This document shows positions 8,385 through 49,726 of a DNA stretch of 64,000 nucleotides, piece by piece; the first letter of the stretch is position 1; each line of letters opens with the position of its first letter. The position numbers and the translations under genes were made by a program. This DNA is from Methanobacteriota archaeon. GTDB taxonomy: Archaea > Thermoplasmatota > Thermoplasmata > SG8-5 > DAIRED01. Where the stretch lies: assembly GCA_043799545.1 (NCBI GenBank), contig JAZDNO010000006.1, positions 82,091 to 146,090 of the forward strand, read 5' to 3'. Under the pieces are notes generated by a model. The model was not told the DNA's origin and ran no database searches. It worked only from the letters and a program-made list of their open reading frames with translations.

Positions 8385-8969
8385 TCAATTTTTGCGAGCG
8401 CGCTGGCGGACCGCCTCGTAAATCATGATCGCGGCGCTGACCGAAGCGTTCAACGACGGCGTTTCGCCGTGCATCGGTATCCTGGCGACGTCGTCGCAAA
8501 GCTCCTTCGTGAGCCTGCCCAGCCCCCTGTCCTCGCCCCCTATGACTATGGCGGTGGGGCCAGTAAAATCGTAGCTATAGTATGGCTTGCGACCGCCCAT
8601 GTCGGCGGCGACTGTCCAGATTCCATCGCGCTTGAGCTGGTCCAGCGCGCCGGGGATGCTGCTCACCCTCGCGACCGGGAGGTAATCGACAGCGCCTGCA
8701 GACGCGCGCAAAGCCCCGATTCCAAGGGGGGCCGCCCTCCTGTCGGGTATCACCACGCCGTGGGCTCCGGCGCATTCGGCCGTCCTGACGACCGCGCCGA
8801 GATTGTGCGGGTCCTCGACGCAATCCAGAAGTATGATTAAGGGAGCTTCGCCGCGCTCTTTGGCGATATCAAGGATGTCGCCGAGCGTGACGTATGCCGA
8901 GGGTGCGCGGCCTTCGGCCCCCCCCCTCTGGCGGCTACGCCGACCCTTCGAGTTTCGCAAGGTAGTCAA
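8385..8969 (-). CDS. SpoU/TrmH-family RNA 2'-O-methyltransferase
   Basis: Knotted SPOUT motifs (DCVEDPHNLGAVVRTAE, IVIGGEDRGL, ETPSLNASVSAAIMIYE). The exact start is uncertain; 35 nt overlap with the upstream ORF. Confidence 0.75.
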   Translation of the reverse strand: MTTLRNSKGRRSRQRGGAEGRAPSAYVTLGDILDIAKERGEAPLIILLDCVEDPHNLGAVVRTAECAGAHGVVIPDRRAAPLGIGALRASAGAVDYLPVARVSSIPGALDQLKRDGIWTVAADMGGRKPYYSYDFTGPTAIVIGGEDRGLGRLTKELCDDVARIPMHGETPSLNASVSAAIMIYEAVRQRARKN

Positions 8970-9843
8970 GCCCCTCCGTTGTTATTTCCAGCAAGAGCCT
9001 GGATCCGTGTCCGCGTATGCCCAAGGAGCGGCATCCCACGTATTTGCGCTTAAGTAGGTCCTTCTCCTCCATGCCGACGATGAGCTTCTTGAAGTAAACG
9101 CCGGAACCGGCCTTCAGCCCGCCCTCTTCGACCTTCTGGCCGTACATCCGCTCGACATCCTGGGCCAGCGCGTGCCTGCTGTTCCCCGCAAGCTCCCTCA
9201 GTGAATCCAGCACGGTCCTTGCATGGATGTCGGAATCGGATTTTCTGGCCCTCTTCGGACCCGGGCGCTGGGGGGCGCCGGCCCCCTGCATGCCATCTAT
9301 CTTCACATGGAGCGAGTCAAGGGCCTTCATAATCGCCGCGACGTCGCTTTCCAGCTTCTTGATAATTATCGCAACTTCTCCATCCGAAGGCATCCGGTCA
9401 TTTTTTCTTTGAGGATGGGCGGGGGCGCGCTCCTCGATTTTTAGACTACCCGATTCCAGCTTCGACAGCGCCTCTGCGCCAGCATCCGTGAGCTTGTAAA
9501 GCGATATTTCGACCGGTCGGTCGTCCTTCCGGCTCGCGTGGCTGCTGCGTTCCAGCAGGCCAAACCTCGTGAGCGCGGCGAGGGTGGCGTTGATGGCATT
9601 GTAACCCTTGCCCGTTTCCTTGCGGACGTAGCCCGGGGTGAAGGTGCCTCCGTGCAACCCGTCCGTGAGCTGGGACTTGGCCAGTTTGAGTATCTCGAAT
9701 TCGAACGGTGCGCAGGAAGTCAGCCTCTCGCTTTCGAAGGATTGGTCTGGTGATTCTTTGCTGGGGGTCATCGCTGTTACCAATAATCTAAAGGAGCCTC
9801 GATATTTATAATTTGCCGCGATATTGGCGAGCCTGATACTCAC
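8935..9843 (-). CDS. Hypothetical protein, possibly DNA-binding (winged-helix-like segments)
   Basis: 302-aa ORF with no catalytic motifs. Helix-rich segments resemble winged HTH. It lies divergent to cdc48. The true start may be internal (MTPSKESP). Confidence 0.35.
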
Positions 9844-9854
9844 ACTGCAAACGT

Positions 9855-9862
9855 TTTATATC
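9855..9862 (+). promoter_or_regulatory. Candidate TATA box for cdc48 (near-leaderless transcript)
   Basis: ttttatat centred about 32 nt upstream of the ATG at 9890, in an AT-rich intergenic region. A second tttataat lies at about 9805. Confidence 0.3.
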
Positions 9863-9889
9863 GCCGGGCGGTTTACGGAACGATTCGAA

Positions 9890-12112
9890 ATGGCCGACCG
9901 AAGCGTTGTCCTGAAGGTGGCAGAAGCGGCGCAGTCAGACGTCAGCCTGGGCCGGGCGCGAATCGATACGACCACCAGGATGGCAATAGGGGTGGAGGTC
10001 GGCGACATAGTCGAAATTCTGGGAAAGAAGAGCACGGTCGCCAAGATTTTCCGGACGCTTTCGGAGGACGAGGGCAAGGGGCTCATCCGCATCGATGGCC
10101 TGGTCCGCAGGAACGCTGGCGTTTCCATCGGGGACAAGGTTGAGGTGCGCAAGGCGGAGGTGGTCAATGCCACGAAGGTTACGATGGCTCCGATGCTGGC
10201 GGCCAACAAGCGCGTTACCTTCGGAGAGGGCATAGAGGCGTTCGTGCGGCGCGGTCTGAGCAAGCGCCCCCTGACGAAGGGCGACACGGTCGTTGTCCCT
10301 GGGATTGCGCTGATGGGCGGCGCGCTGCCGTTCATTGTGGTCAGCACCGCGCCCAAGGGTATTGTTCAGATTACAGACTCGACCGAAGTGCAGGTGAGGG
10401 AGGAGACCGCGGAGGCCGGGGAGACGGTGACCCAGAGCATCACGTACGAGGACATCGGCGGCCTGAAAGACGAGCTTCAGCGCGTGAGGGAGATGATAGA
10501 GCTCCCGTTGAAGCACCCAGAGCTGTTCCAGCGCCTCGGAATCGACCCCCCCAAAGGGGTTCTGCTCTACGGCCCGCCCGGGACTGGCAAGACGCTTATC
10601 GCGAAGGCGGTCGCTGGCGAGGCGGGGGCGAACTTCTACTCCATCCAGGGTCCTGAGATAATCTCCAAATACTACGGCCAGTCGGAGGAGAAGCTGCGCG
10701 AGAAGTTCGAGGAGGCCGAGCACAACGCGCCGTCGGTCATTTTCATCGACGAGCTGGACTCAATCGCGCCCAAGAGGGACGAGGTTCAGGGCGAGGTCGA
10801 GCGCCGCGTCGTGGCCCAGCTGCTGACGCTGATGGACGGCCTTAGCAACCGTGGGAATGTCATAGTCATCGCCGCCACCAACAGGGAGGACGCGATTGAT
10901 CCGGCGCTGAGGCGCCCGGGCCGCTTCGACCGCGAAATCGAAATCGGCGTGCCCGACCGCTTCGGACGCAAGGAAGTCATGCTGATTCACACTCGTGGCA
11001 TGCCCATAGAGGGAACCGAGGACGAGCGCGCCAAGCTTCTCGAAGAGCTTGCGGCGATAACATTCGGGTTCGTAGGCGCCGACCTGGCCGCGCTGGCCCG
11101 CGAGGCCGCGATGCGGGCCTTGCGCAGGTACCTGCCAGGGATAGACCTGGACAAGCCGATTCCCGCGGACGTGTTGGGCAAGATGATTGTGAAGCGCGAA
11201 GACTTCAAGGAGGCGCTGAAGGACGTGGAGCCGAGCGCGATGCGGGAGGTCCTGGTCGAGATACCGAAGGTCACTTGGGACGAGGTCGGAGGGCTGGAGG
11301 ACGCCAAGACGACTCTGAGGGAATCTGTAGAGATGCCCCTGAACAACCCGGCGGCTTTCGAGCGGATGGGAATCAGGCCGCCTCGCGGAATCCTTCTGTA
11401 CGGTCCGCCGGGGACAGGTAAGACTCTACTGGCCAAGGCAGTTGCCAACGAATCGCAGGCCAATTTCATATCCATCAAGGGTCCGGAGGTAATGTCGAAA
11501 TGGGTGGGGGAGAGCGAGAAGGCGGTGCGCCTGATTTTCAAGAAAGCCAAGCAGGTCGCGCCATCGATAGTGTTCCTGGACGAGATAGACGCAATCGCGC
11601 CGATGAGGGGCTCAAGCTCCGGAGATGCTGGAGCGACCGAGCGGGTGGTGAACCAGATATTGACATCAGTGGACGGGCTGGAATCGATGGAGGGCGTGGT
11701 CGTCCTGGCGGCGACGAACCGACCCGACATCCTGGATTCCGCGCTGCTCAGGCCCGGGCGTTTCGACAGGATGGTTCTCATCAGCGTGCCAGATAAGGAG
11801 ACGAGGCTCCAGATATTCAAGGTGCACACCAAGAAGATGCCCCTCAAGGGCGTGGACCTGAACCGCCTTGCTGACGTGACCAAAAACTACGTCGGTGCGG
11901 ACATCGAGGGCCTGTGCCGCGAGGCCGCCATGCAGGCGCTGCGCCAAGACCCGGCGGCCAAGGAAGTCACGACGGCGCACTTCGAGGCCGCGCTGAAGGT
12001 CATCAGGCCATCTGTCACCGAGGAAATAATCAAATACTACGAGGGGATTAAGGAGAAGATTGAAAGCGGGATAACCAAGAGCAAGCGAGACTCTTTTGGT
12101 TATTACGCCTAG
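9890..12112 (+). CDS. cdc48: Cdc48/VAT-type AAA+ ATPase (two AAA domains)
   Basis: N-terminal double-psi-barrel-like domain ([22 protein letters not shown]), two Walker A motifs GPPGTGKT, and two second-region-of-homology segments. Start placed at [13 protein letters not shown]. Confidence 0.9.
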
Positions 12113-12114
12113 AG

Positions 12115-12375
12115 GTGAATGCGATGAAGAAGTTTGCAGCGGAACTCCGCGGAAAGACCGTGATGACCAACGACGGCCAGATTCTAGGCATGATAGACAA
12201 CTTCGTCGTGGACACCATCACCGGCGAACTGCACCACGTTCTGGTGATTCCGGCCGAGGACGTCGAGACCCGGTTATTCAGGACGGACGCGGGCGGGCGC
12301 CTAGTGCTTCCGTTCCTGGAAATGAAGGCTGTACGGGATGTCGTGGTCATGAACGTGAAGCCGGGAAGGGCGTAG
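12115..12375 (+). CDS. PRC-barrel domain protein
   Basis: 86 aa. GKTVMTNDGQILGMIDNFVVDTITGELHHVLV is typical of the PRC-barrel fold. Starts 3 nt after the cdc48 stop. Confidence 0.5.
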   Translation: MNAMKKFAAELRGKTVMTNDGQILGMIDNFVVDTITGELHHVLVIPAEDVETRLFRTDAGGRLVLPFLEMKAVRDVVVMNVKPGRA

Positions 12376-12458: not shown

Positions 12459-15400
12459 TTAAATCCCCTTCTTCAGCTTTCTCGCCAGCCCCGGCGATAT
12501 GCCCTGTATGCGCGTAAGCTCTGCCATCTCCGCGCGGTGGATGTCGTCCTCCGAGCAGAATCCGGCTTCCCATAGGTCGTTGGCCTTCGAGTAGCCGATG
12601 CCCGGCACGGACATGAGTTTCTGGACGAACGATTCCCGGTCTCGCTTAGCGACCTTTTTCGTCCCCTTCTTCTTTGCTGCTCCCCCATCGCCAGATATCG
12701 CGGACTCCATCTCCCTTGCCAGGGCGTCTTCCTTGTCCTTGTATCTCAACCGCTCGCCGCAAGCGTGGCATTTCTTCGCACCGATGTCGTTCGTCTCGCC
12801 GCATTCCTGGCATGCCACGCCGGAACGTTTCCTCTCTTTCCTGGCCGCCGCCGGTGCGGGCGTCTTTCTCTCCGGAGGCTGCTCCTGGGCCTGCTTGCGA
12901 GCGGGTTTCGAAGCATCCTTCTCCGGGACGACCTCTCTCTCAACGCCTTCAATGTTCTTCATTGCGTCTGAGAAATCCGGAGCGAGCGAGAGCGCCTCCT
13001 CGAACGAGGCGATTGCGTCAGCTGTCTTGCCGGCGCGTTTCAATGCGATACCTCTGATGTTCCACAGTTCGGCGCTGCGCTCGTCGAGCTTCAACCCGTC
13101 GTCCGCTGCCCGAACCGCGCCTTTCAGGTCGTCCGATTCGAGCATAACGAACGATTTTATTGCGTAAAGCTCGGGAGATTTCACCGCTGCCAGCCCATCC
13201 CCGATGAGTTCCAGCGATTCTCCAGCCCTTCCCTGCCTCGCCAAAACGGAGGCCTTTCCCGCCAGTGCCGCGAGTGCGTCCGGACGCGCGTCCAGCGCCC
13301 GGTCGTAACTTTTAATCGCCTGGTCAAGCTCCCCGCGCGATGCGAACACGGCGCCGCGGTCGCACCAGGCTTCCCAGTGCCCCGGGTCGCTCTGCAAGGC
13401 CTTGTCCAGGCACATCAGGGCGTCGTCCAATTTTCCCGAAAGGTATAGGGTATTTCCGACCTTGTTCCAGAGGTCCGCGCTGGATTTGGCAAGCTCGGCC
13501 GCTTCTTCCAGCGCCTCCGAAGCCTTGCCCTTGCGCCCCCAAAAATCGAGCAGGTCCGCTTTCAGCAGGAGCAGCGGGACGGAGATGTCCGTCTTGGCGG
13601 TAATGGCGCTGAGCGCCTCCGATGCGGCGGCATAACGGCTTGAACCGAGCAGAGCTTCGGTCCTCCCCAGCGCAGCTGCGGTGTCGTCCGGGTCAAGGTC
13701 CAGGGCATCCTCGAAAAACGACGCGGCTTCCTCGTAATGCCCGAGCGCGTAGGCTGCCTCGCCTTGCATCCGCGGCAGACGGGACTCGCTCCTCAGAAGC
13801 ATGGCCTCGCCGAACCGCCCTATCGCGTCCTCGAACATCCCGAGGCGCATGCAGAGCTCGCCGAGGCCCACCAACTCGTCGAATTCCAGCACCTCGCGCT
13901 CCTCCGCCCTGGCATCCTCGATGCGCTCTATTTCCTCAGGCTCGCCAGCCGGCAAATCCGGCTCAAGCTCGGGCTCTTCCGTCTCCCTGAGGTCGGAGCC
14001 GCATCCCATGCAGAAGTTATCGCGCTCCCCGACATCGCCCCCGCACTCCGAGCATGTGAACAGGACAGTATCTTCACTCTCGGACTCGCCTGAACCCGGG
14101 GCGATGCCCGCGGGCGGCACCTCCGAAACTGACGGGACTGGCTCGGTCATTGAGACCGCTTCGAAAGGTGCAGGCTCGGGAACTGGTAACGGTGCCTGTA
14201 CTGGAACCTCGACGGGTTTAACGGGGACAGAGCGCTCGGCCTGCTGCTGGCGCTCCTTCGCTTCTCGCTGCTGCCGCAGCCTCTCCTCCTGCTCTTGGCG
14301 CAGGGCTCTCTCGGTCTTTTCCCGGAGCTCGATGGCGACATCCCAGCCGGGCTTCATGTCAAGAGCCAGCTCAAGCGAGTCGAGCGCAGCCTTGTACACG
14401 CCTGCGGCAACCAGGGCGCTCGCCTTCTGAGCATGCATCTCAGGCGTTTTGAACTTCTCGAGCACGCGGTCGTACGACTTCACGGCCTCCAGATGTCTGC
14501 CAAGGTCCTGGAGGAGCAGCCCGCGGTTCAGCCACGTGTCCAGGTTGTCGCCGCGCAGCTCGAGGGCCTTGTTGAAACTCGCCAGCGCCTCGTCGCTCCT
14601 GCCGAGGTGCTTGAGGGCGACGCCCCGGTTCGAGAGCGCGCGCTCGTTCTTCGGGTTTGACCGCAAAGCCTGGTCGAAGCAAAGCACGGCCTCCTCGTCC
14701 TTCCCCAGCTCGAGGAGAGTGGCCCCCTTGTTGTTCAACGCTTTTTCGTACGTCTTGTTCAGCTCCAGCGCCTTATCGTAGCAGGCGAGCTCGTCGTCGT
14801 GCTTGCCCTTCGAGTACAAAACGGCCCCGAGGTTGAACCAGCCCTCGTCCGAACCCGGGTTCCTGCGCAGCGCCTCCTCGTACGCTTCGACGGCCTTGTC
14901 GTTCTGCCCGAGCGCCGCCTGGCAGTTGCCGAGCATCGCGTGCGGGACGTCGTAGTCCGGCTTCAGCGCCGCCGCCTTGTCGAAGTACTCGATGGCCTTG
15001 CGGTAGTTGCCAGCCTCGTAGAAATCGTAGCCCCATTTCATTATCGAGTCCAGCTGCCCCATGCTCGGCAGCTGCCTGTTCCCGTCCTTCTCGAGGAACG
15101 ATTCCGTGGAGCGCCTGTCGAGCTCTTCTGTGAGCCCGAACTTGTCCAGCAGCTGGCCGAACCTCTCGGTGTCTGCGACCGCGACGTCGAACTGGGCGGC
15201 GTAGTTTTCCGCGTCCTTTGAAACGTCCCCGGCAGTGATGTAGATGCCCCTCGGCACGCCGGCCTTGCGCATCCTCTCCACGGACTTCTGTATGTCGTGC
15301 GGCCTGGCCGAATCGAGCCCGCGGGTCGCGAAGACGAGGTACTTGTCGCCGTTTGCGATTAGGTGCGCCTCCATCTCCATCGAGTCCCCCGAGGTTCGGA

Positions 15401-15557
15401 AACCTTTTGTCTCCAGCCCCATCCCCTTGAGAACCCTCTCCACGAACGAGCGGAACTCCGGCTCGCTGAGCTCGCGCAGCTCCTTTGCCAGCCTGGCCGG
15501 GTCGTGCGTCATGCTCCGGCCTCCTCGTCCAAACGCTTGCGGGACCTCTCGCGCCAT
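12459..15557 (-). CDS. Giant multidomain protein: N-terminal Mrr-cat-like restriction-endonuclease-fold domain, two TPR arrays separated by a Zn ribbon, C-terminal Zn ribbon and helix-hairpin-helix
   Basis: N-terminus EFRSFVERVLKGMGLET..DKYLVFATRG..GIYITAGDVS fits Mrr_cat. More than 15 TPR-like repeats. Internal Zn ribbon FTCSECGGD..CMGCG. C-terminal CQECGE..CHACGE ribbon and HhH (MSVPGIGYSKANDLWEAGF). Confidence 0.6.
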   Translation of the reverse strand: MAREVPQAFGRGGRSMTHDPARLAKELRELSEPEFRSFVERVLKGMGLETKGFRTSGDSMEMEAHLIANGDKYLVFATRGLDSARPHDIQKSVERMRKAGVPRGIYITAGDVSKDAENYAAQFDVAVADTERFGQLLDKFGLTEELDRRSTESFLEKDGNRQLPSMGQLDSIMKWGYDFYEAGNYRKAIEYFDKAAALKPDYDVPHAMLGNCQAALGQNDKAVEAYEEALRRNPGSDEGWFNLGAVLYSKGKHDDELACYDKALELNKTYEKALNNKGATLLELGKDEEAVLCFDQALRSNPKNERALSNRGVALKHLGRSDEALASFNKALELRGDNLDTWLNRGLLLQDLGRHLEAVKSYDRVLEKFKTPEMHAQKASALVAAGVYKAALDSLELALDMKPGWDVAIELREKTERALRQEQEERLRQQREAKERQQQAERSVPVKPVEVPVQAPLPVPEPAPFEAVSMTEPVPSVSEVPPAGIAPGSGESESEDTVLFTCSECGGDVGERDNFCMGCGSDLRETEEPELEPDLPAGEPEEIERIEDARAEEREVLEFDELVGLGELCMRLGMFEDAIGRFGEAMLLRSESRLPRMQGEAAYALGHYEEAASFFEDALDLDPDDTAAALGRTEALLGSSRYAAASEALSAITAKTDISVPLLLLKADLLDFWGRKGKASEALEEAAELAKSSADLWNKVGNTLYLSGKLDDALMCLDKALQSDPGHWEAWCDRGAVFASRGELDQAIKSYDRALDARPDALAALAGKASVLARQGRAGESLELIGDGLAAVKSPELYAIKSFVMLESDDLKGAVRAADDGLKLDERSAELWNIRGIALKRAGKTADAIASFEEALSLAPDFSDAMKNIEGVEREVVPEKDASKPARKQAQEQPPERKTPAPAAARKERKRSGVACQECGETNDIGAKKCHACGERLRYKDKEDALAREMESAISGDGGAAKKKGTKKVAKRDRESFVQKLMSVPGIGYSKANDLWEAGFCSEDDIHRAEMAELTRIQGISPGLARKLKKGI

Positions 15558-18253
15558 CGCTTTGCCTCTTCGAGGTTGGGGTTTATTCCGAGCGCCTTGT
15601 CATAGGAATCCAGGGCATCCCGATACCTCTCGAACTCGTGCATCGCGATGCCCCGTTTGAGCCAGATGGCACCGTCTCCGGGGGCAATCTCAATGGCCTT
15701 GTCGTACGCAGCCATCGATTTCTCCTGGTCGCCCATCTCCCGGAACGACTCGGCGACGCCCAGCCAGGCGTTGGAATTGCGGGGCTCCACCTGGGTTGCT
15801 ATCTTGAATATCCTGAGCGACTCGTTGAATCCCCCGTTCTCGAACAGAAGCCAAGACTTCTCCACTAAAGCAGAAGGGTTTTCCGGCTCGATGGAGAGGG
15901 CTTTGTCGAAGTCCGCCATTGACTTGTCGGACTGGCGCTGGTCCTTCAAAATCTGGCCCCTGAGTATCCAGCCCGGCGCGAAGTCCCCGTGCTCCTTCGT
16001 CAGGTTGTCCAATAGCTGCAATGCGGCTCCCCAACGCCCCATCGCCCTGTATGTCGAAGCCTTCCCGGCCATGGCTCTAGGGTCCGTTGGCTTTCTGGAC
16101 AGCACCTCGTCGTAGGCCTTCAGCGCGTCGTTGTACTTCTGCCTCTCGGACAAGGCGGCGGCTACACGGAGCCTCGGCTCGAAATAGTCCGGGTCGAGGG
16201 CTATCGCCCTCTCGTAAAGCTGGAGCGCGCCTCCCCAGCGGCCCTTGGCTTCGAGAACGGTTCCCTTCTTGTACCACGCCTCCGAGAGGTCCTCGTCAAG
16301 CTCCAGTGCCTTGTCGAAGCACTTGTACGCCTCGTCGAACTTGCCCAGCCCTTGGAAGGAGTCCCCTATCCCTAGCCAAGCGTCGGCGTAGCGCTCGTCA
16401 AGTTCCACCGCTTCGTTGAACGCGGAAAGCGAATCCTCGTATTTTTTCAATGCCAGCAACACTTCGCCCTTCTTGTTCCACAGTACTTGGTCCTCGTGGT
16501 CCTGGGCCAGCGCGGCCTCGTAGGCCTCGAGGGCGCTGTATGACTTGCCGATGCCGGTTAAGACGTCCCCCTTCGCTTCCAGGAGGATGAGGGATGTCGG
16601 CGTAGCGGCCAGCCACTCGTCCAGCAGCGCGAGCGAATCGTCGCTCCGCCCTGTGCCGGAGAGGGCGTTGGCCTTGCCCGCGATGGCCTCCTCGTTCCCG
16701 GGGCTGATGGCCAGCACTTCCTCGAATGTGGCGAGCGCGGACTCGAACTCGTTTTCTTCCAGAAGCTTGTCTGCCTGGTCCAGAAGGCTCTCGATTCTCG
16801 GGTCCGGCGCTGCCGAGAGAACCTCGTCTATCTCGCTCTCTATTTTATCCGAGTCTGCGCCCGCAGGCGTGGCTACAGGGGATTCGGGCGAGGTTTTGTC
16901 AAGCGTAAGGGGCTCCGGCTCTTTGACTTTTGCAGCGACGGTCTCATGTACGGATGGCTCCGGTTCTTTGGATTTCGGAACAATCTCGGGGGCTGGAGCG
17001 AGCGGCTGAGGTCTTTTTCCTAGATCCAGCTCCGGCAACGGCTCCGAATCATCATCTTCTTTTTCCGGCTCTGAAAGCCCGGAGAGGATGTCTGCAAGGC
17101 TGCGCTGCCTGGCTTGCTCTGCGACCGGGGGCTTCGGTGGTTCTTCATCTTTTGGCTCGGGTTGCGGGGCCAGTTCCGCCGGGATTGGCTGCGGCGGAGA
17201 GGCCATCTTTTCGGGAGGTGCGGGCGCTGTGGATTTGTCTCGTTTGACTTCGGGAGATAACTCCTTCTTTTCCGGTTGAATTACGGTCGCCCTCTCGATG
17301 TCTCCCAGCTTGGCAAGCGTATCCGCTCGTTTCTTAGCAATCGACTGGTCCGCAGGCCTCTTCTCGAGAGCCGCTTCGTAGCAGCGGCCGGCCTCCCTGT
17401 AACGCCCAATGGCGAAGAGCGAATCGCCCTTGAAAACCCATCCGTCCGGAGAATCTGGCTGCACGGCCAGGGCTCTCTCGAAGCACCGCAAGGCGTCCGG
17501 GTGGTTGTTCGCCTTCGCGAGCGCGGCCCCTCGTTCGAGCCACGTTTCAGGCGTGGGCTCCTCCGTCTCGGCAAGCGCCTCCGAATACTTTGCGGCCTCG
17601 CCAGCTCTTCCCGTCTCCTGGAGCAGGTACACCTTGGCCCGCAGCGCGTCAGGCTCCCTCGGGTCTATGGCCAGGGCGGCGTCGACAAGGGCCATGGAGC
17701 CGGATATGTTCATTGCGTTCGAAGATGCGCACCACTCCTTGTCGAGCACGGAAGAGAGTGCTTCGCCCGGCCGCCTCGCCCGCCACCTCAGCCAAGCGAA
17801 CTGAAGGCAAACGCGGGCAGAGGGAGGGGAATAGCTGAGCTCGAATCCGTGCTCGAGGCGGTCAAGGGCGGCGGACATCCATGCAAGATCCGCCTGCGAC
17901 ATGGGTGGCATGGGCTCTTTGGGGTCCAGCGGCACCCCGGCGAGGAGCATCGCGCCCGAAGCCGCGGAAAGGAACTCTGCGAACCTGGCCTGGCCCATCC
18001 CCGGCATGTCGTCCCTGTCCGGAGGGTCGAATCGCCCGGAATCAGATGCGATGGCTTGGCCCGAAGGCGATGGGTGCGCGAGAAAAACCATGGCGTTGCC
18101 CTCGCCCAGCCTACGGGACGCCCCCTTTCCAGAGGTCCCCCAGTCCATCGTCCAGAGTGGCGATTCTCGCGAGAGCTCGTCGCAGCAGCCGCCGCAGATG
18201 CGCACGCCCGAGGGAGCGCCCTCCCCGCATCTGAGGCACGTAGACGGGGCCAT
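15509..18253 (-). CDS. Giant TPR-repeat protein with N-terminal Zn ribbon and A/P/E-rich low-complexity linker
   Basis: N-terminus CLRCGEGAPSGVRICGGCC, an acidic/proline-rich segment, then more than 15 canonical TPR repeats (W-LG-Y..A...P motifs). Its 3' end overlaps the start of the 12459..15557 gene by 49 nt. Confidence 0.6.
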   Translation of the reverse strand: MAPSTCLRCGEGAPSGVRICGGCCDELSRESPLWTMDWGTSGKGASRRLGEGNAMVFLAHPSPSGQAIASDSGRFDPPDRDDMPGMGQARFAEFLSAASGAMLLAGVPLDPKEPMPPMSQADLAWMSAALDRLEHGFELSYSPPSARVCLQFAWLRWRARRPGEALSSVLDKEWCASSNAMNISGSMALVDAALAIDPREPDALRAKVYLLQETGRAGEAAKYSEALAETEEPTPETWLERGAALAKANNHPDALRCFERALAVQPDSPDGWVFKGDSLFAIGRYREAGRCYEAALEKRPADQSIAKKRADTLAKLGDIERATVIQPEKKELSPEVKRDKSTAPAPPEKMASPPQPIPAELAPQPEPKDEEPPKPPVAEQARQRSLADILSGLSEPEKEDDDSEPLPELDLGKRPQPLAPAPEIVPKSKEPEPSVHETVAAKVKEPEPLTLDKTSPESPVATPAGADSDKIESEIDEVLSAAPDPRIESLLDQADKLLEENEFESALATFEEVLAISPGNEEAIAGKANALSGTGRSDDSLALLDEWLAATPTSLILLEAKGDVLTGIGKSYSALEAYEAALAQDHEDQVLWNKKGEVLLALKKYEDSLSAFNEAVELDERYADAWLGIGDSFQGLGKFDEAYKCFDKALELDEDLSEAWYKKGTVLEAKGRWGGALQLYERAIALDPDYFEPRLRVAAALSERQKYNDALKAYDEVLSRKPTDPRAMAGKASTYRAMGRWGAALQLLDNLTKEHGDFAPGWILRGQILKDQRQSDKSMADFDKALSIEPENPSALVEKSWLLFENGGFNESLRIFKIATQVEPRNSNAWLGVAESFREMGDQEKSMAAYDKAIEIAPGDGAIWLKRGIAMHEFERYRDALDSYDKALGINPNLEEAKRWRERSRKRLDEEAGA

Positions 18254-18286: not shown

Positions 18287-19222
18287 TTAGTGAAGCTCCC
18301 CTTCAACGCCGATTAGCGCGCACGCGCGGCTTTTTCGCTCGCCTGGCCGAACCGGCCCGGAGCGTCCGAACGCCAGCACCTCCAGATTCGGCGCGGAATT
18401 CCTTAGCTCCGCAGCGACGGCCTCCTCCACGTCCCCGTCGCCCGGGCCTCCCACCAGCAGATACCCGCTTTTTATGCTCTCCGGTTCAAGCTCCATCCAT
18501 TCAGAGCCAACCAGCGCCCGTGCGAGCTCGAATCCGCGGTCTCCGCCGATGGCCGTCGCCACGTCGGCCTTGAGGAAGGAGGCGCGCGAGAAGACGCTTT
18601 TCAGCGCTGGCCGGTCCCCGTCGGTTCCCGCCGCAGCCACTTCGTGAGGGACCAGGAGTGCGAGTTCGGACACGATTTCCATGGCCCTGAGGAAAGGGAG
18701 TTTTGGGGCAATCTGGGAAATCCTGTCGTTGCGCAGGACCAGCAGCCCGTCGCACAGCCTCCTGAGCGTTTTGGCCTGCTCCAGCGCCGCCGCCCGCCTG
18801 GCGGGGGCTTCCACAGAGAACGGAAGGATGGCGATACACACAGAGATTGCGCCAGCTTCCTTAGCCACGCGGGACGCCAGGGCTGCGCAGCGCCACCCAG
18901 AATTTCCTCCCAGCCCGCACAAGGAAAAGAATACGTCGGTACCGGAAATTTCGCTAGCCAGCACCGATGCCGACCGCAGGTGAGGCACGACGGGAATCCT
19001 CGGGTCCGTGTCCGAGGCTCCGAGAAGCTCGTGCCCCGGCACCAGCATCGAATGCCCCGCAAGCTTGCCCAGACCTTTTCGGGGATTGCCATTGAGCGCG
19101 AAAGTGCCAATGCTCAAACGCCCAGACACGAATTTTAGGGAGTTGCATCCCGCTCCCCCGCAACCCGCGATCCCGATTTTCAGCGGTTTCGCGCCATCGC
19201 CAACCCTGAATATTTCAGTCAT
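18287..19222 (-). CDS. Divergent FtsZ/tubulin-superfamily protein (FtsZ-like, degenerate GTP-binding loops, no C-terminal domain)
   Basis: KIGIAGCGGAGCNSLKFV aligns with the FtsZ T1 loop (GVGGGGxNA). SLCGLGGNSGWRCAALASRVAKEAGAISVCIAILPFSVEAPARRAAALEQAKTLRRLCDGLLVLRNDRI aligns with the FtsZ T4 loop plus H5 to S7 (GMGGGTGTG...[11 protein letters not shown]...LIVIPNDKL). Confidence 0.6.
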   Translation of the reverse strand: MTEIFRVGDGAKPLKIGIAGCGGAGCNSLKFVSGRLSIGTFALNGNPRKGLGKLAGHSMLVPGHELLGASDTDPRIPVVPHLRSASVLASEISGTDVFFSLCGLGGNSGWRCAALASRVAKEAGAISVCIAILPFSVEAPARRAAALEQAKTLRRLCDGLLVLRNDRISQIAPKLPFLRAMEIVSELALLVPHEVAAAGTDGDRPALKSVFSRASFLKADVATAIGGDRGFELARALVGSEWMELEPESIKSGYLLVGGPGDGDVEEAVAAELRNSAPNLEVLAFGRSGPVRPGERKSRACALIGVEGELH

Positions 19223-20652: not shown

Positions 20653-20730
20653 GCTCCAGTCATCGGGCTATGCGCATAATAACCTTGCCTTTCCAGTTTC
20701 GGACACCTGCAATGAACTGCTATAAAACCG

Positions 20731-21693
20731 GTGGCGGATGACGGTCCGATGCCCATTGAGTTTATCGAAGCAAAGTCGCTTGTGCGCGTGAACAAGCGCA
20801 GCGGCGACGTCAACCTCAATCCCTACCAGGGCTGCTTTCACGACTGCGCCTACTGTGACGGCAAGGCCGAGAGGTACAACATGCACGAGGATTTCGCAAC
20901 AAGACTCCGGGCGAAGGCGAACGCTCCAGAACTGCTTGAGAAGTTCCTGCGCGGCAAGGGATTCTCGCCGGTGAACAGGGAGAGGACTGGGACGCTGGCC
21001 GATTTCAGCGACGAAGCCAAAAAGGCACTGAGGGGCGCCTCCCCAAGAAAGTTCACAATCAACATCTCGGGCGGCGTGTGCGACATCTACCAGCCAGCCG
21101 AAGCCGAGATAGGCCTGTCGCGGAGGCTCATGCAGCTCGTGTACGATTACGACTTCCCGATATTCCTGCTCACGAAGAACAAGCTGGTCCTGAAGGATTT
21201 GGACCTGCTGCGCAAGATAAACGTGAGCCAGGGCGCGACAGTGGCCATGTCTGTGACGCTCGCCGACGAGAGTTTGCGGGAGAAGTTCGAGCCTGGCGCC
21301 AGCACCACCCAGGAACGGTTCGAGACGCTGCGCACGCTCCATGAATCAGGTATCAAAACCGGTATCTGGGCGCTCCCACTTCTTCCGTGGATTGGGGACA
21401 CGGACGTAAACGTAGATGCAATCATCTCGTGCGCGAAAGAATCGGGCGTCGACTGGATGATATTCAGCGGCCTCACTCTCAAGCCAGGAAGGCAAAAGGA
21501 GGCCTTCATGCGGCTCATCGCGAAGGATTTTCCGGGACTCGAGGAGAAGTACCGTCGACTCTACGCCAACGAGAGCAAGTACGGAACGCCTGACCTCGAA
21601 GCGGCGAGGGCGATGGGCCTGCCCGACCCTTGGCTCAAAGGAAAGCGGATGGCAAAGAAATACGGCATCGCCTACAAAAGCTGGCGCGATTGA
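20731..21693 (+). CDS. Radical SAM protein, spore-photoproduct-lyase-like (COG1533-type)
   Basis: CFHDCAYCDG (CxxxCxxC-like cluster motif in the SPL family arrangement) and a TIM-barrel-like C-terminal region. Confidence 0.6.
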   Translation: MADDGPMPIEFIEAKSLVRVNKRSGDVNLNPYQGCFHDCAYCDGKAERYNMHEDFATRLRAKANAPELLEKFLRGKGFSPVNRERTGTLADFSDEAKKALRGASPRKFTINISGGVCDIYQPAEAEIGLSRRLMQLVYDYDFPIFLLTKNKLVLKDLDLLRKINVSQGATVAMSVTLADESLREKFEPGASTTQERFETLRTLHESGIKTGIWALPLLPWIGDTDVNVDAIISCAKESGVDWMIFSGLTLKPGRQKEAFMRLIAKDFPGLEEKYRRLYANESKYGTPDLEAARAMGLPDPWLKGKRMAKKYGIAYKSWRD

Positions 21694-21810: not shown

Positions 21811-22836
21811 ATGCGTTCTGTGAGCGGGGACGAGCTCGAGGCGGTCGCCAGGTACGTGGCCAAGGCATCCACCGAGAATTTCGAAGGGGCCGGAGGCTCG
21901 GACGCCGAGGGGGGCATCCTCCAGGTGAAAGGGCCGATACTCCCGGAGCGATTCATTCCGATAAATGGCCCCCGCCCGTGCGAGCGCTCGGCGGCTATAG
22001 ACGGCGGTTCGGCGACGGTGCTGGATTGCGGCTCGTTCGTCGTCGGGGCAATCTCGGCCGGGCATGCGATTTCCGACGCTCACGGAGCCTGCCGGACCGA
22101 TTCGCATATCCGGCTCATTGGCGCTTCGCATGCGGACAAGAAATCGATATACCGTGAAATTTTCTCGAAAGCCATGGGAGCCGAGCCGACGGACTACCCC
22201 AAGAGCCTGGACTCGCTCGTCGGCCGCTTGCGCAACATCGCAGAGCTGGAGGAGGCCGCCAAGGTCGTTTCAGGGGCGCCGGAGGGCTCGCTCGTGATGA
22301 TTGACGGTGCGCTCTGGGCCGGCCTCGGGGACTTCGCCCCGCTGATAGAGAAGCTGGTAAAATCCGCGAGCCAGCGGAGCGTATGCCTCGCCGGCGTGAG
22401 CAAGCGAAGCATGCTCTACTTCGGATACCGCCCGCTCGTTCCATATCTCGCGCGGCTGGGGAAAAAAACGCTCGGCGACTCGCTCTGGGCGTATCCAGTC
22501 GCCTTGGCCGAGTACGAGGGCAGGACCTTCGGCGCGACGTACGTGGCGCATCTGCACCCGATGGCCCAGTTCGCCTTCAGGGTCGATGTGAACCCGATGC
22601 CTGGGTTTGCTGCGGACGAGACAATAGCAATGCTCGCAGGGCTTTCTGACGACCCGGGATATGTCGGTTACCCGTACCCCCTGGCTCGGGTGCACAACGA
22701 GGTCGCGATAGGCGAAGAGACGAGACGGGAACTGCAGATGGGACTGAAAAGGACATTGACGTCCTCGGGCGGCGACGCAGCGCTGATTGAGGAGTTCTCG
22801 CGCAACTTTCATGATATTCTTGACGGAGGGATTTGA
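21811..22836 (+). CDS. nurA: NurA 5'-3' nuclease
   Basis: The NurA-domain DGS motif (AIDGGSATVLD) is present. The gene sits immediately upstream of herA-mre11-rad50, a syntenic group known to be conserved in archaea. Confidence 0.7.
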   Translation: MRSVSGDELEAVARYVAKASTENFEGAGGSDAEGGILQVKGPILPERFIPINGPRPCERSAAIDGGSATVLDCGSFVVGAISAGHAISDAHGACRTDSHIRLIGASHADKKSIYREIFSKAMGAEPTDYPKSLDSLVGRLRNIAELEEAAKVVSGAPEGSLVMIDGALWAGLGDFAPLIEKLVKSASQRSVCLAGVSKRSMLYFGYRPLVPYLARLGKKTLGDSLWAYPVALAEYEGRTFGATYVAHLHPMAQFAFRVDVNPMPGFAADETIAMLAGLSDDPGYVGYPYPLARVHNEVAIGEETRRELQMGLKRTLTSSGGDAALIEEFSRNFHDILDGGI

Positions 22837-24378
22837 TTGGAGTATATCGGTCGTGTTGTGGGGCGGTGCGTTCGGGAAATAAGGTTCAGGGCCGTATACG
22901 GGGAGGACTTCCAGCTCGGCGAAATTCTCGTTGTCGGGGACGAGGAGAGGAAGCGGAGCCTTCTCGCCCGCGTCATCGACATAGAGTACGGCGCCGACGC
23001 CTCTGGCGACGGCTGGTCCGAGCAGGTCGCGGGGAACATGATGCAGGGCGACTCGAAGGGCGGGTACGAGCTGCGAGAGAAGGAGCGCAGGCTCTTCTCG
23101 ACCGGAGTTTGCACCCCGCTGGGCTTCGTGGCGGACGGCAAGTTCAGAAAGCCCAAGTCGCTCGTCCCGCACTTCTCCAAGGTCAGGCGCGCGTCGCAAA
23201 GCGACTTCCAGTTCCTCAGTCAGGAAATGGGCGACGTCGAGGTCGGCGTCCTGAGGAGCGGGGAGCGCAAGCTAGACATCCGCGTGGGCGTCGACGGCTC
23301 GAAATTCCCCAGCCACGTTGGAGTCTTCGCAACGACTGGCATGGGCAAGAGCAACCTCATGAAGACCCTCGTGGCGAGCGTCATGCGCGGGCGGCGCTAC
23401 GGGATGCTCGTCCTGGACCCTCATGGGGAATACTTCGCGGGCCAGCCGGAGTACAGGGGGCTGAGCCACCTGGCGGACGCGGCCGAGCGGCTCGTGGTTT
23501 TCTCAGGAAGGAAGCTGCCCGGGGCGCACAACACAATCGCCGTTTCCTCCAGAGAAATCAACATCCAGGACCTCCTGAACCTCCAGGAGTACAGCGACGC
23601 CCAGCGGGAAGCCCTGCACGCCCTGCGGGGCGAGCTCGGGGAGAACTGGCTCATGGATGCGCACGAGGCAGACGCATCTGACCTGGAAACGCGCCTGAGG
23701 CGCCGCTTCCACATAGATACGATTAACGTCATCAAGCGCAGGATCGAACGGGTGATGTCGAGCGGCAAAATCACAACCGACAGGGGCATCTCCATGACCC
23801 GCACGGTAATAGGGGCCCTGAAAGATGCGAAGGTCGTCCTGGTCGATACCAGCAGCATGCCGGAAATGGAGGAGCTGCTCGTGAGCACAGTCATTGCGCG
23901 GGCAGTGCTCGAGCATTACCAGCACCTCTACGAAACGCCCGAGGAATTCGCCGCGCTGCCCCCGGTCCTCATAACGTTGGAGGAGGCTCAGCGTGTGCTG
24001 GACAAGTCTCGCGGCACAGTCTTCTCGCGCATAGCCCGCGAGGGGCGAAAATTCAAGGTCGGATTATGCGCCGTTTCGCAGCAGCCCAAGCTGATAGACA
24101 ACCAGGTCATCTCGCAGTTCAACACGCTGTTCGTCATGGGTCTGGCGGACAAGCGCGACCGGGAGATTCTGCGCGACGCGTCGAAGCAGGACATCGCCGA
24201 CCTGGACAACGAGATACAGACGTTGATGGTCGGCGAGGCGCTCGTCACCTCGCCTTTCGTTCCTTTCGCCTTGCCCGCGGCCGTTCACTGTTTTGAAGAA
24301 TACCTGACAGCTCTGAACGGACAGAAGGAGAAAGACGGAAAGAGGGCGCGGGCGAAGCCCGACAAGGGGTTCTACTGA
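22837..24378 (+). CDS. herA: HerA bipolar DNA helicase (FtsK/HerA-superfamily ATPase)
   Basis: Walker A GMGKSN, Walker B VLVDT, and the HerA barrel N-terminus. Start is 1 nt after the nurA stop. Confidence 0.85.
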   Translation: MEYIGRVVGRCVREIRFRAVYGEDFQLGEILVVGDEERKRSLLARVIDIEYGADASGDGWSEQVAGNMMQGDSKGGYELREKERRLFSTGVCTPLGFVADGKFRKPKSLVPHFSKVRRASQSDFQFLSQEMGDVEVGVLRSGERKLDIRVGVDGSKFPSHVGVFATTGMGKSNLMKTLVASVMRGRRYGMLVLDPHGEYFAGQPEYRGLSHLADAAERLVVFSGRKLPGAHNTIAVSSREINIQDLLNLQEYSDAQREALHALRGELGENWLMDAHEADASDLETRLRRRFHIDTINVIKRRIERVMSSGKITTDRGISMTRTVIGALKDAKVVLVDTSSMPEMEELLVSTVIARAVLEHYQHLYETPEEFAALPPVLITLEEAQRVLDKSRGTVFSRIAREGRKFKVGLCAVSQQPKLIDNQVISQFNTLFVMGLADKRDREILRDASKQDIADLDNEIQTLMVGEALVTSPFVPFALPAAVHCFEEYLTALNGQKEKDGKRARAKPDKGFY

Positions 24379-25499
24379 TGCGATTCGTTCACATCTCTGA
24401 TACCCACCTGGGGCACACGGCATACACCAAGCTGGATGAGAACGGTTACAACCAGCGCGAGGCCGACGTTTTCGACGCGTTCAAGCAGGGGGTGGACAAA
24501 GCGCTGGCCCTGAAGGTCGACGCCGTGCTACACACGGGCGACCTGTTCGATTCCATCAGGCCGTCCAACAGGGCGATGCACTTCGCCCTGGAGCAGATTC
24601 TGCGCCTCTCGGAGGCGGAGGTGCCGTTCGTGGCAATCGCCGGCAACCACTCGTCGCCGCGGCTGCGCGAAACGGGGAGCGTCTTCAGGCTCTTCGAGCA
24701 CTTGAAAGGCGTCCGCGTAGTCTATGCCGGGGCGTACGAGCAAGTGGACGTCGGGGACGTCGCCGTCCACTGCGTGCCCCACTGCGCCACCCAGGACGCT
24801 TTCGCAGAGGAAGTCCGCAAGGTGTCGCCCTTGCCTGGAAAAACCAACGTGGCCATGCTGCACTGCGGCGTCAGCGGCGTCGAGCGCTTCGCGATGGGGG
24901 AGTTCAACGAGAACCTGCTGCCGAGCGGGCAGCTGTGGCCAGAGATGGAATACATCGCGCTGGGTCATTTCCACGACAGGACAATAGTCGCCGCGAACGC
25001 GGCTTACGCCGGCTCGACCGAGCGGATGAGCTTCAACGAGGCGGGGAAGGAAAAAGGGGTCGTTGAGGTGAGCGTTCCGAGGATGTCCATGGAGTTCCAC
25101 GGACTGAAAATCAGGGAGATGGTAGACTTTGGCAAACTGGATTGCGCCGGTCTGACGAACGCCGACATCATCCGGACAGTCGAAGGGCGGCTTCTTTCCT
25201 CAAAGGCGGATGGCAAAATCATGCGCATCAGGCTGACGGGCATCCCGCGCAGCCAGGTCGACGGCCTCGACCAAAAACGCCTAAGGAGCGCGGTGAGCGG
25301 GGCGCTCCACTTCGAGCTCAGAATCGAGACGCTGGAGGAGTGCGCCGGTGCGCAGGGCACGCAGGCTGCAATCGGTGATTTGCGCAACGAGTTCGAGGCG
25401 TTCGTATCGGGGACGCCGGTAGAGCGCTTGGACAAGGCCGAGCTCCTGAAGCTCGGGCGGGGATACATCGACGGAGCCATGAACGAAGCGGGGGGCTAG
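24378..25499 (+). CDS. mre11: Mre11 DNA double-strand break repair nuclease
   Basis: Calcineurin-like phosphoesterase motifs (MRFVHISDTHLGH, GDLFD, GNHS, HCGV, LGHFH). Overlaps the herA stop by 1 nt. Confidence 0.85.
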   Translation: MRFVHISDTHLGHTAYTKLDENGYNQREADVFDAFKQGVDKALALKVDAVLHTGDLFDSIRPSNRAMHFALEQILRLSEAEVPFVAIAGNHSSPRLRETGSVFRLFEHLKGVRVVYAGAYEQVDVGDVAVHCVPHCATQDAFAEEVRKVSPLPGKTNVAMLHCGVSGVERFAMGEFNENLLPSGQLWPEMEYIALGHFHDRTIVAANAAYAGSTERMSFNEAGKEKGVVEVSVPRMSMEFHGLKIREMVDFGKLDCAGLTNADIIRTVEGRLLSSKADGKIMRIRLTGIPRSQVDGLDQKRLRSAVSGALHFELRIETLEECAGAQGTQAAIGDLRNEFEAFVSGTPVERLDKAELLKLGRGYIDGAMNEAGG

Positions 25500-25500
25500 A

Positions 25501-49543: not shown

Positions 49544-49665
49544 CACGTTCCCCAAGTGCGAAGCCTCCTTCAAATTCGCAACAGGATTTAGTGGTTTTGT
49601 GAGGATATAAGCATATTTGTAAAGCGGTGCCGGGAAGCGCTGAAATGCATATCGTAACCAGCGAC

Positions 49666-49697
49666 ATCTATATATATATAATAGGCTATAATTGGTA
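49666..49697. promoter_or_regulatory. AT-rich divergent promoter region with a (TA)n tract and TATA-like boxes
   Basis: ctatatatatataataggctataattgg lies between the divergent genes starting at about 49543 (minus) and 49727 (plus). It is the most AT-rich intergenic stretch in the window. Confidence 0.35.
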
Positions 49698-49726
49698 AAG
49701 CGCGAGCCTAGCCAAGGAAATAAGTT

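What the first reader, a model, noticed from the sequence alone, without database searches (positions are those of the whole stretch)
12459..15557. Mrr-cat nuclease fold fused to TPR arrays, internal and C-terminal zinc ribbons and an HhH
A restriction-endonuclease-like (Mrr_cat) N-terminal domain is normally found in type IV restriction enzymes or Mrr-family proteins. Here it heads a 1032-aa TPR scaffold that ends in a Zn ribbon plus a helix-hairpin-helix DNA-binding motif (LMSVPGIGYSKANDLWEAGF). It is unclear from sequence alone whether the catalytic (D/E)xK residues are intact. This could be an inactivated nuclease fold reused for DNA binding, or an active nuclease tethered to a protein-interaction scaffold.
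Basis: partly seen in the sequence, partly recalled or inferred. Interest (0 to 1): 0.55.

Follow-up and report, generated by a model that had tools for sequence, protein, structure and literature searches.

The report
Dead-nuclease TPR scaffold with DNA-binding tail
This archaeal gene encodes a large repeat-rich scaffold protein whose restriction-enzyme-like head has lost its catalytic residues and whose tail carries a DNA-binding motif; it is always paired with a second scaffold gene in Thermoplasmata archaea and sits among housekeeping rather than defence genes, so it is not a restriction enzyme but an uncharacterised, lineage-specific two-protein module.

The parts
12459..15512 (-). TPR-B gene, the finding with a corrected start (M16); 1017 aa
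   Evidence: ORF. ATGA start/stop overlap. Identical NCBI protein P0001 of 1017 aa. Ortholog N-termini.
15138..15512 (-). N-terminal Mrr-type PD-(D/E)xK fold (aa 16-140 of the 1032-aa numbering) with a degenerate catalytic motif: R36, E61/E63, F76, T78, R79
15018..15137 (-). Linker helix and near-invariant junction motif (G159-x-R161-x-L163-P164-S165 … M173-x-W175-G176-x-D178-F179) joining the dead nuclease fold to TPR 1
   Evidence: Invariant columns. The junction HMM also detects the distant subfamilies.
14328..15062 (-). TPR array 1 (about 7 repeats, aa ~166-410)
   Evidence: Pfam TPR_1/2/8/11/16 hits. Collinear conservation across orthologs.
14067..14327 (-). Acidic, variable-length charged or low-complexity linker (aa ~411-497)
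   Evidence: Length-variable, poorly conserved columns. The measured interval aa 411-560, which also spans the internal Zn ribbon, has pI 4.2.
13995..14060 (-). Internal Zn ribbon (C502, C505, C516, C519), duplicated in some orthologs
   Evidence: Invariant cysteines. ZnM HMM hits and extra copies in P0008 and P0020-22.
12879..13880 (-). TPR array 2 (about 10 repeats, aa ~560-893)
   Evidence: Pfam TPR hits at aa 677-888 and elsewhere. Alignment.
12747..12821 (-). C-terminal Zn ribbon (C916, C919, C930, C933)
   Evidence: Pfam Zn_ribbon_3 28 bits. Invariant cysteines. Weak similarity to the L40e and Rpb12 ribbons.
12633..12737 (-). Lys-rich basic linker (aa 941-975)
   Evidence: Sequence KKKGTKKVAKR. 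pI 9.2 in an otherwise acidic protein. Low pLDDT, so probably disordered.
12462..12632 (-). C-terminal (HhH)2 domain with two hairpins, PGIGYSKA and QGISPGLA
15509..18253 (-). TPR-A, the obligate upstream partner gene (914 aa): N-terminal CxxC…CxxC Zn ribbon, a ~170-aa domain of unknown fold, TPRs, a Pro/Glu-rich linker and more TPRs
   Evidence: Collinear orthologs immediately upstream in 15 of 15 loci. Invariant Cys6/9/20/23. The N-module HMM also detects the upstream genes of distant subfamilies in L021 and L022.
18287..19222 (-). Divergent FtsZ-like gene (311 aa) 33 nt upstream of TPR-A. It is associated in only 3 lineages, so membership of the module is uncertain
   Evidence: Pfam Tubulin and TIGR00065 below cutoff. 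E 3e-21 to M. jannaschii FtsZ1. Same position in L015/L023 and L017. Motifs.
12124..12375 (+). Small PRC-barrel gene (83 aa), convergent with TPR-B and following Cdc48 (9824..12112). This is context only, not shown to belong
   Evidence: Pfam PRC E 1.7e-9. 73% identical gene in the same position in L021. The PRC-Cdc48 neighbourhood and the divisome role of PRC-barrel proteins are from the literature.

Best explanation
TPR-B is a non-catalytic scaffold protein. Its head is an Mrr-type restriction-endonuclease fold that has lost its active site and now most likely serves as a structural or interaction module, rigidly docked through an invariant junction onto the first TPR array. Two TPR arrays of about 7 and 10 repeats provide protein-binding surfaces. 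The only basic part of the protein is the C-terminal Zn ribbon, Lys-rich linker and RadA-like (HhH)2 domain, which tethers the assembly non-specifically to nucleic acid, most likely duplex DNA. The protein is made together with TPR-A, a second Zn-ribbon/TPR scaffold, and most likely works with it as a complex. The two genes are translationally coupled and co-inherited throughout Thermoplasmata. The module is a lineage-specific housekeeping device that recruits partner proteins to the chromosome, not a restriction or defence enzyme. Shown here: the fold, the loss of the catalytic residues, the (HhH)2 identity, the gene pairing, the phyletic range and the non-defence context. Inferred: lack of nuclease activity, DNA as the ligand, physical A-B complex formation and the scaffold role. 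Speculative, about 0.3: a link to cell division or chromosome segregation, suggested by the FtsZ-like, PRC-barrel/Cdc48, small-GTPase and gyrase neighbours.
Confidence: 0.68

Rival explanations
1. Nucleoid-divisome or segregation adaptor. The A-B scaffold binds the chromosome through the (HhH)2 domain and uses its TPR arrays to recruit the divergent FtsZ-like protein, PRC-barrel (CdpB-like) proteins, Cdc48 or small GTPases, coupling chromosome position to division in these archaea. This is a specific version of the best explanation.
For: The FtsZ-like gene heads a co-directional FtsZL, TPR-A, TPR-B array with 33-nt and overlapping junctions in the window, L015/L023 and L017. A PRC-barrel gene and Cdc48 lie convergently downstream in the window and in L021. 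PRC-barrel proteins are FtsZ-divisome components, and the PRC-Cdc48 neighbourhood is recurrent. A Ras/Arf-type GTPase lies 33 nt downstream of the distant homolog in L022. gyrB or gyrA lies within 10 kb in several loci.
Against: Most orthologous loci (7 or more) have IleRS upstream and surface-protein genes downstream, with no FtsZ-like, PRC or Cdc48 gene within 10 kb. Such associations may be residual synteny. The FtsZ-like protein lacks a T7 loop and has an altered T4 loop, so its own function is unknown.
Confidence: 0.2
2. RNA- or ribosome-associated scaffold. The Zn ribbons and the HhH domain bind rRNA or other RNA, and the TPR arrays organise translation or RNA-processing factors.
For: The best single-sequence PDB matches of the C-terminal module are the HhH extension of archaeal L32e (3.6e-6) and the L40e Zn ribbon (1.9e-4) (profile search). 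IleRS is the immediate upstream neighbour of the pair in 7 loci, and L40e, EF1-beta and aS21 genes are nearby in L001. GluRS and LysRS are near in L022.
Against: With the family profile, the RadA/Rad51 N-terminal domain scores equally well (6.8e-11), and the great majority of hits are DNA-repair or DNA-binding (HhH)2 domains. Proximity to tRNA synthetase genes is common for any housekeeping gene and is not conserved in the window's own subclade.
Confidence: 0.1
3. Active nuclease tethered to a scaffold: a type IV-like or defence enzyme, or a DNA-repair nuclease with a non-canonical active site.
For: The fold is unquestionably that of Mrr, MspJI and AspBHI. An acidic pair (E/D61, E/D63) is conserved in most members. 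Some PD-(D/E)xK enzymes tolerate replacement of the Lys. The nurA-herA-mre11-rad50 cluster lies 6 kb away in the window.
Against: The Lys position is T/S/A/V and the Gln position F/R/K/V/Y/L, both variable, which is not the pattern of a relocated catalytic residue. The alpha1 Glu is Arg in this subclade. No member has a complete motif. There is no modified-DNA reader domain, no PADLOC hit, no defence or R-M context in any locus, and the gene shows vertical-looking conservation down to 32% identity with fixed synteny. The proximity to nurA-rad50 is not seen in other loci.
Confidence: 0.04

Closest known systems
Mrr / MspJI / AspBHI catalytic domains (Pfam Mrr_cat, PF04471; type IV modification-dependent restriction enzymes)
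   Different: In those enzymes the catalytic domain is C-terminal and follows a modified-DNA reader. Here it is N-terminal, lacks the alpha1 Glu, the Gln and the Lys of the E…D…QxK signature, is fused to TPR arrays, and is not in a restriction or defence context.
AF1548 (PDB 1Y88), a small Archaeoglobus protein of unknown function
   Different: AF1548 is 184-199 aa with the two domains contiguous, and it keeps an intact E…D…ExK motif (alignment). TPR-B has about 800 aa of TPRs and Zn ribbons inserted between the domains and a dead motif. None of 145 nearest canonical Mrr_cat relatives carries the HhH, so direct descent is not shown.
Rpb5 N-terminal 'jaw' domain of eukaryotic RNA polymerases
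   Different: There is no sequence relationship beyond the fold, the partners are different, and Rpb5 has no TPR, Zn-ribbon or HhH modules.
RadA/Rad51 N-terminal (HhH)2 domain and the XPF/Hef/ERCC1, UvrC and ComEA (HhH)2 domains
   Different: Here the domain is a C-terminal appendage on a TPR scaffold, preceded by a Zn ribbon and a Lys-rich linker. No recombinase, helicase or nuclease core is attached.
Archaeal FtsZ-divisome accessory proteins (SepF, PRC-barrel CdpB1-3, CdpA)
   Same: The resemblance is by genomic association only: a PRC-barrel gene with Cdc48 and a divergent FtsZ-like gene are neighbours in some lineages.
   Different: There is no homology to any of them, the association is not universal, and no functional data exist.

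Membership tests
Mrr_cat / PD-(D/E)xK superfamily (fold level) | Significant match to the PF04471 profile | tested here: met
   E 3.3e-9, 37.3 bits against a cutoff of 21, aa 27-136 covering profile positions 1-114 of 115. The family profile retrieves 3239 Mrr_cat-type representatives.
Mrr_cat / PD-(D/E)xK superfamily (fold level) | Alpha-beta-beta-beta-alpha-beta core fold superposable on solved members | tested here: met
   [not shown]
Active Mrr-type nuclease / type IV restriction enzyme | Catalytic signature E(alpha1)…D…(Q/E)xK | tested here: not met
   R36, E61, F76 and T78 in the window. The Q and K columns vary in orthologs, and no family member has all the residues. The 1Y88 alignment agrees that the ExK residues are lost.
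Active Mrr-type nuclease / type IV restriction enzyme | N-terminal modified-DNA recognition domain (winged helix or SRA-like) preceding the catalytic domain | tested here: not met
   The Mrr-like domain starts at the N-terminus. The only other domains found are TPR, Zn ribbon and HhH.
Active Mrr-type nuclease / type IV restriction enzyme | Nuclease activity on (modified) DNA | not testable with these tools
   This needs biochemistry.
Anti-phage defence system component | Match to known defence protein models, or location in a defence island | tested here: not met
   PADLOC returns only generic TPR and PrimPol-TPR hits. Neighbours in about 18 loci are housekeeping.
(HhH)2 nucleic-acid-binding domain (HHH_5) | Two helix-hairpin-helix motifs with G-h-G hairpins and a profile match | tested here: met
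   [not shown]
(HhH)2 nucleic-acid-binding domain (HHH_5) | Binds duplex DNA | not testable with these tools
   Inferred from homologs and from the basic charge of the region.
TPR scaffold proteins | Tandem 34-residue TPR motifs | tested here: met
   TPR_1 E 1.7e-70 with 10 stretches, TPR_2 E 5e-65, and others.
Zn-ribbon | Two CxxC knuckles, conserved | tested here: met
   C502/505/516/519 and C916/919/930/933 are invariant in 19 sequences. Zn_ribbon_3 scores above the cutoff.
AF1548-like Mrr_cat + (HhH)2 proteins | Contiguous nuclease and HhH domains with an intact active site | tested here: not met
   Both domains match structurally, but they are separated by about 800 aa and the motif is degenerate.

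The most novel reading that the evidence does not exclude
TPR-A and TPR-B form a Thermoplasmata-specific chromosome-anchored hub. The (HhH)2 tail binds the nucleoid, and the two TPR scaffolds, one headed by a fossil restriction-nuclease fold, recruit a divergent FtsZ paralog, PRC-barrel/Cdc48 or small-GTPase partners. This would make it a previously unrecognised nucleoid-divisome or segregation coupling system in these archaea.
Probability: 0.15. Interest if true: 0.8.

Novelty: new variant of a known kind. Interest (0 to 1): 0.45.

Why it matters
It shows that a Pfam 'restriction endonuclease' label on an archaeal gene can be misleading. Here the fold is a fossil, built into a conserved two-protein TPR scaffold with a DNA-binding tail. 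The pair is conserved across the sampled Thermoplasmata, Methanomassiliicoccales and Thermoplasmatota MAGs. The ESCRT review read here notes that several Thermoplasmata genomes lack known FtsZ-divisome components. The pair sometimes sits with a divergent FtsZ-like gene, a PRC-barrel gene, Cdc48 or a Ras-like GTPase. If the module does organise proteins on the chromosome, it would be a new entry point into archaeal chromosome and cell-cycle biology. If not, it is still a clean example of nuclease-fold exaptation and a well-defined uncharacterised family worth an arCOG or Pfam annotation.

Tried and rejected
1. Single-sequence PDB search of the N-domain gave only noise. The profile version gave a weak but correct 1Y88 hit.

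2. The word-indexed homology search with the N-domain profile returned only 7 fragments. It was superseded by the exhaustive HMMER search.

3. The genome scan with the N-domain alignment alone failed because no stretch was conserved enough. It was redone with the junction region. The two bacterial loci it returned (L019, L020) were TPR-only false positives.

4. The third homology search, with TPR-A aa 1-322, was swamped by bacterial TPR proteins and found no orthologs. This search was wasted.

A profile search of it against PDB found nothing, so its fold remains unknown.

6. The afdb50 fold library was unavailable.

7. Defence hypothesis: PADLOC was negative and no defence neighbours were found, so it was rejected.

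8. Descent from AF1548-like Mrr_cat-HhH proteins: none of 145 nearest canonical Mrr_cat representatives has the HhH, so this is kept only as an architectural parallel.

9. A link to the nearby nurA-herA-mre11-rad50 cluster: it is not conserved in other loci, so it was rejected as coincidental.

10. Five literature searches were run. The four aimed at this architecture or gene pair found no description of either.
Full report
**Observation**

The window carries a 1032-codon ORF at 12459..15557 on the minus strand. Pfam finds the following:
- Mrr_cat at aa 27-136 (E 3.3e-9, 37.3 bits against a cutoff of 21).
- Dense TPR matches over aa ~166-410 and ~560-893.
- Zn_ribbon_3 at aa 913-937.
- HHH_5 at aa 979-1030 (E 1.9e-9).

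An internal CxxC…CxxC ribbon lies at aa 502-519. All eight ribbon cysteines are invariant in 19 orthologs.

One correction concerns the start codon. The sequence at the 5' end reads gcATGAcg. The ATG of M16 (15512) overlaps the TGA stop of the upstream gene. NCBI's model of the identical protein (P0001, 1017 aa) starts there, and so do all ortholog alignments. The gene is therefore 12459..15512, and it is translationally coupled to its upstream neighbour. Residue numbers below keep the 1032-aa numbering.

**Is the nuclease fold real, and is it active?**

To examine the active site, I searched 1.84 billion representative proteins with the family profile. This gave 3239 hits at E≤1e-3. I then aligned the best 150, the orthologs and E. 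coli Mrr to one HMM.

Canonical members, including E. coli Mrr (VYVQAKRW), show FE … G[IV]D[IV]xA … Y[IL][IV]Q[CA]KR[YW]. The window protein reads FR … SMEMEA … YLVFATRG:

| Canonical residue | Window residue | Status |
|---|---|---|
| alpha1 Glu | R36 | lost |
| Asp | E61 | conservative change |
| Gln | F76 | lost |
| catalytic Lys | T78 | lost |
| structural Arg after the Lys | R79 | kept, invariant in the 19 full-length orthologs |

- Across orthologs the Gln column is F/R/K/V/Y/L and the Lys column is T/S/A/V.
- The few basal members that keep the Lys (FIIKFKRG) have lost the Asp.
- The independent HMMER alignment to 1Y88 (EID…ECK against EfE…ratr) agrees that the ExK residues are lost, although it pairs the AF1548 Asp with E63 rather than E61.

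No member of the family has a complete signature, and the substituted positions vary freely. That is the pattern of a decayed site, not a relocated one. I infer that the domain is catalytically inactive. This is an inference from sequence, not a measurement.

**The C-terminus**

A profile of the last 125 aa matches these (HhH)2 domains:
- P. furiosus Rad51 N-terminal domain, 6.8e-11.
- The HhH extension of haloarchaeal L32e, 6.6e-11.
- Other RadA N-terminal domains, about 1e-8.
- Hel308, Pol X, UvrC, XPF, Hef and ComEA at weaker scores.

The whole protein is acidic (pI 5.0). The Mrr-like domain has pI 5.9 and the TPR arrays 4.7-5.3. Only the Lys-rich linker and the (HhH)2 domain are basic, with median pI 8-9. 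Any nucleic-acid affinity is therefore concentrated at the C-terminal tail. Nothing supports DNA binding by the dead nuclease head.

**Family, distribution and context**

About 22 full-length orthologs (77% down to 32% identity, 97-99% coverage) share the whole architecture. A scan of one genome per GTDB species found 14 archaeal loci. All are MAGs labelled Thermoplasmata, Methanomassiliicoccales, Thermoplasmatota or Methanobacteriota.

In every locus with upstream sequence (15 of 15), a 950-1300-aa gene abuts or overlaps the start of the target on the same strand. It is a collinear ortholog of the window's upstream gene at 15509..18253, which I call TPR-A. TPR-A has these parts:
- An invariant N-terminal CxxC…CxxC ribbon.
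- A ~170-aa domain of unknown fold.
- TPRs, a Pro/Glu-rich linker, and more TPRs.

More distant relatives of the N-domain exist. Some are 1140-1220 aa and have the Zn ribbon and HhH. Others are reduced to about 444 or 737 aa and lack them. All named examples are Thermoplasmata or Methanomassiliicoccales. In the two distant loci examined, the gene immediately upstream (267 aa in L021, 520 aa in L022) again carries the TPR-A Zn ribbon and N-module (HMM E 2e-13 and 3.7e-9).

The conserved core of the system is therefore [Zn-ribbon + N-module protein] followed by [dead Mrr fold + junction + TPR protein]. This points to a functional, probably physical, partnership of the two N-terminal modules.

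The other neighbours vary and are housekeeping:
- IleRS and gyrB upstream, with PKD/beta-helix surface proteins downstream, in seven loci.
- Deoxyhypusine synthase, archaeosine TGT and RpoL in L002.
- Methyltransferase genes and gyrB/gyrA in L023.
- The window itself is housekeeping throughout: hydrogenase, AlkD, SpoU, Cdc48, nurA-herA-mre11-rad50, HMG-CoA reductase, ACS and pilus ATPases.

PADLOC finds nothing but generic TPR similarity.

**Hints to function**

- In the window, L015/L023 and L017, a divergent 311-aa FtsZ paralog sits directly upstream of TPR-A, with a 33-nt gap in the window. It matches M. jannaschii FtsZ1 at E 3e-21. Its T1 loop is conserved, its T4 loop is altered to GLGG(N/S)(S/N)G, and it has no recognisable T7 loop.
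- In the window and in L021, a small PRC-barrel gene (12124..12375, Pfam E 1.7e-9, 73% identical between the two loci) and Cdc48 lie convergently downstream.
- PRC-barrel proteins are components of the FtsZ-based archaeal divisome, and PRC-Cdc48 adjacency is a documented neighbourhood (bioRxiv 10.1101/2023.03.28.534520).
- In L022 a Ras/Arf-type GTPase follows the distant homolog by 33 nt.

These associations are suggestive of cell-cycle or chromosome biology. However, each occurs in only a minority of loci, so I treat that link as a hypothesis with probability of about 0.2-0.3.

A rival reading is RNA or ribosome association. It rests on the L32e-like and L40e-like best single-sequence matches and on the tRNA-synthetase neighbours. 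It is weaker, because the family profile overwhelmingly hits DNA-repair (HhH)2 domains.

**Mechanism proposed**

TPR-A and TPR-B are co-translated and most likely assemble, probably through their conserved N-modules. The dead Mrr fold is locked to TPR 1 by the invariant G-x-R-x-LPS…M-x-WG-x-DF junction. Together the two proteins present four TPR arrays for partner binding. The TPR-B tail (Zn ribbon, Lys-rich linker, (HhH)2) anchors the assembly non-specifically to duplex nucleic acid.

- Shown: the domain identities, the motif loss, the gene coupling, the distribution and the context.
- Inferred: catalytic inactivity, DNA as the ligand, complex formation and the scaffold role.

**Comparison with known systems**

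The protein belongs to the PD-(D/E)xK/Mrr_cat fold superfamily, but it fails the defining features of an active Mrr-type or type IV enzyme: the motif, the domain order, the reader domain and the context. Its closest structural analogue is AF1548, which holds both end domains, contiguous and with an intact motif. None of the nearest canonical Mrr_cat relatives has an HhH, so direct descent is not shown.

Functionally it resembles other exapted dead nuclease folds, such as the Rpb5 jaw. Five literature searches were run. The four aimed at this architecture or gene pair found no description of either.

**Verdict**

- The 'inactivated nuclease' alternative is supported.
- The defence or active-nuclease framing is rejected.
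- The result is a new, lineage-restricted variant of known domain types: an undescribed conserved two-gene scaffold module of unknown cellular role.
- Interest is moderate (0.45). It would rise substantially if the chromosome or division link were borne out.

Noticed in passing
window 15509-15512: The TPR-A stop and the TPR-B start overlap as ATGA.
   Followed up: yes
window 18287..19222 (-); L015/L023 5787-6722; L017 1814-2737: A divergent 311-aa FtsZ paralog (E 3e-21 to MjFtsZ1). Its T1 loop is conserved, its T4 signature is altered to GLGG(N/S)(S/N)G, and it has no recognisable T7 loop. It heads the FtsZL, TPR-A, TPR-B array in three lineages. It may bind GTP but lack polymer-stimulated hydrolysis.
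   Followed up: partly
window 12124..12375 (+), next to Cdc48 at 9824..12112 (+): An 83-aa PRC-barrel protein, convergent with TPR-B and 73% identical to the PRC gene in the same position in L021. PRC-barrel (CdpB) proteins are FtsZ-divisome components, and PRC-Cdc48 adjacency is a known archaeal neighbourhood.
   Followed up: partly
L022 11537-12391: A Ras/Roc/Arf-type small GTPase (284 aa) lies 33 nt downstream of the distant Mrr-TPR-HhH homolog P0143. A Roadblock/LC7 gene lies about 7 kb from the ortholog in L023.
   Followed up: no
L021 7201-10220: A reduced version of the pair: a 267-aa Zn-ribbon/N-module gene overlapping a 739-aa dead-Mrr + TPR gene that lacks the Zn ribbon and HhH. It shares Cdc48, PRC and EamA synteny with the window, so it may be the positional equivalent in a related lineage (this form clusters with proteins named Methanomassiliicoccales).
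   Followed up: partly
L002 15293..16990 (-): A 565-aa paralog with a double zinc ribbon, HHH_5 and weak TPRs. Its C-terminal module resembles that of TPR-B (tblastn E 1.8e-7). These genomes therefore hold a small family of Zn-ribbon/HhH/TPR proteins.
   Followed up: no
[not shown]
   Followed up: partly
window 21811..27921 (+): A complete nurA-herA-mre11-rad50 double-strand-break resection cluster lies 6 kb from the finding. It is not syntenic with the pair in other loci.
   Followed up: partly
window 56229..62990 (-): A giant 2253-aa protein with CARDB domains and several zinc ribbons (DZR, Zn_ribbon_1/3) near its C-terminus.
   Followed up: no
window 47333..49957 (-) and 36676..38049 (+): Long ORFs of 874 aa and 457 aa with no Pfam match at E≤1e-6.
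   Followed up: no
window 8935..9843 (-) and 20668..21342 (-): ORFs of 302 aa and 224 aa flanking the cluster, with no Pfam or NCBIfam match. The 224-aa ORF is co-directional with the MFS, FtsZL, TPR-A, TPR-B array (15-nt gap).
   Followed up: no
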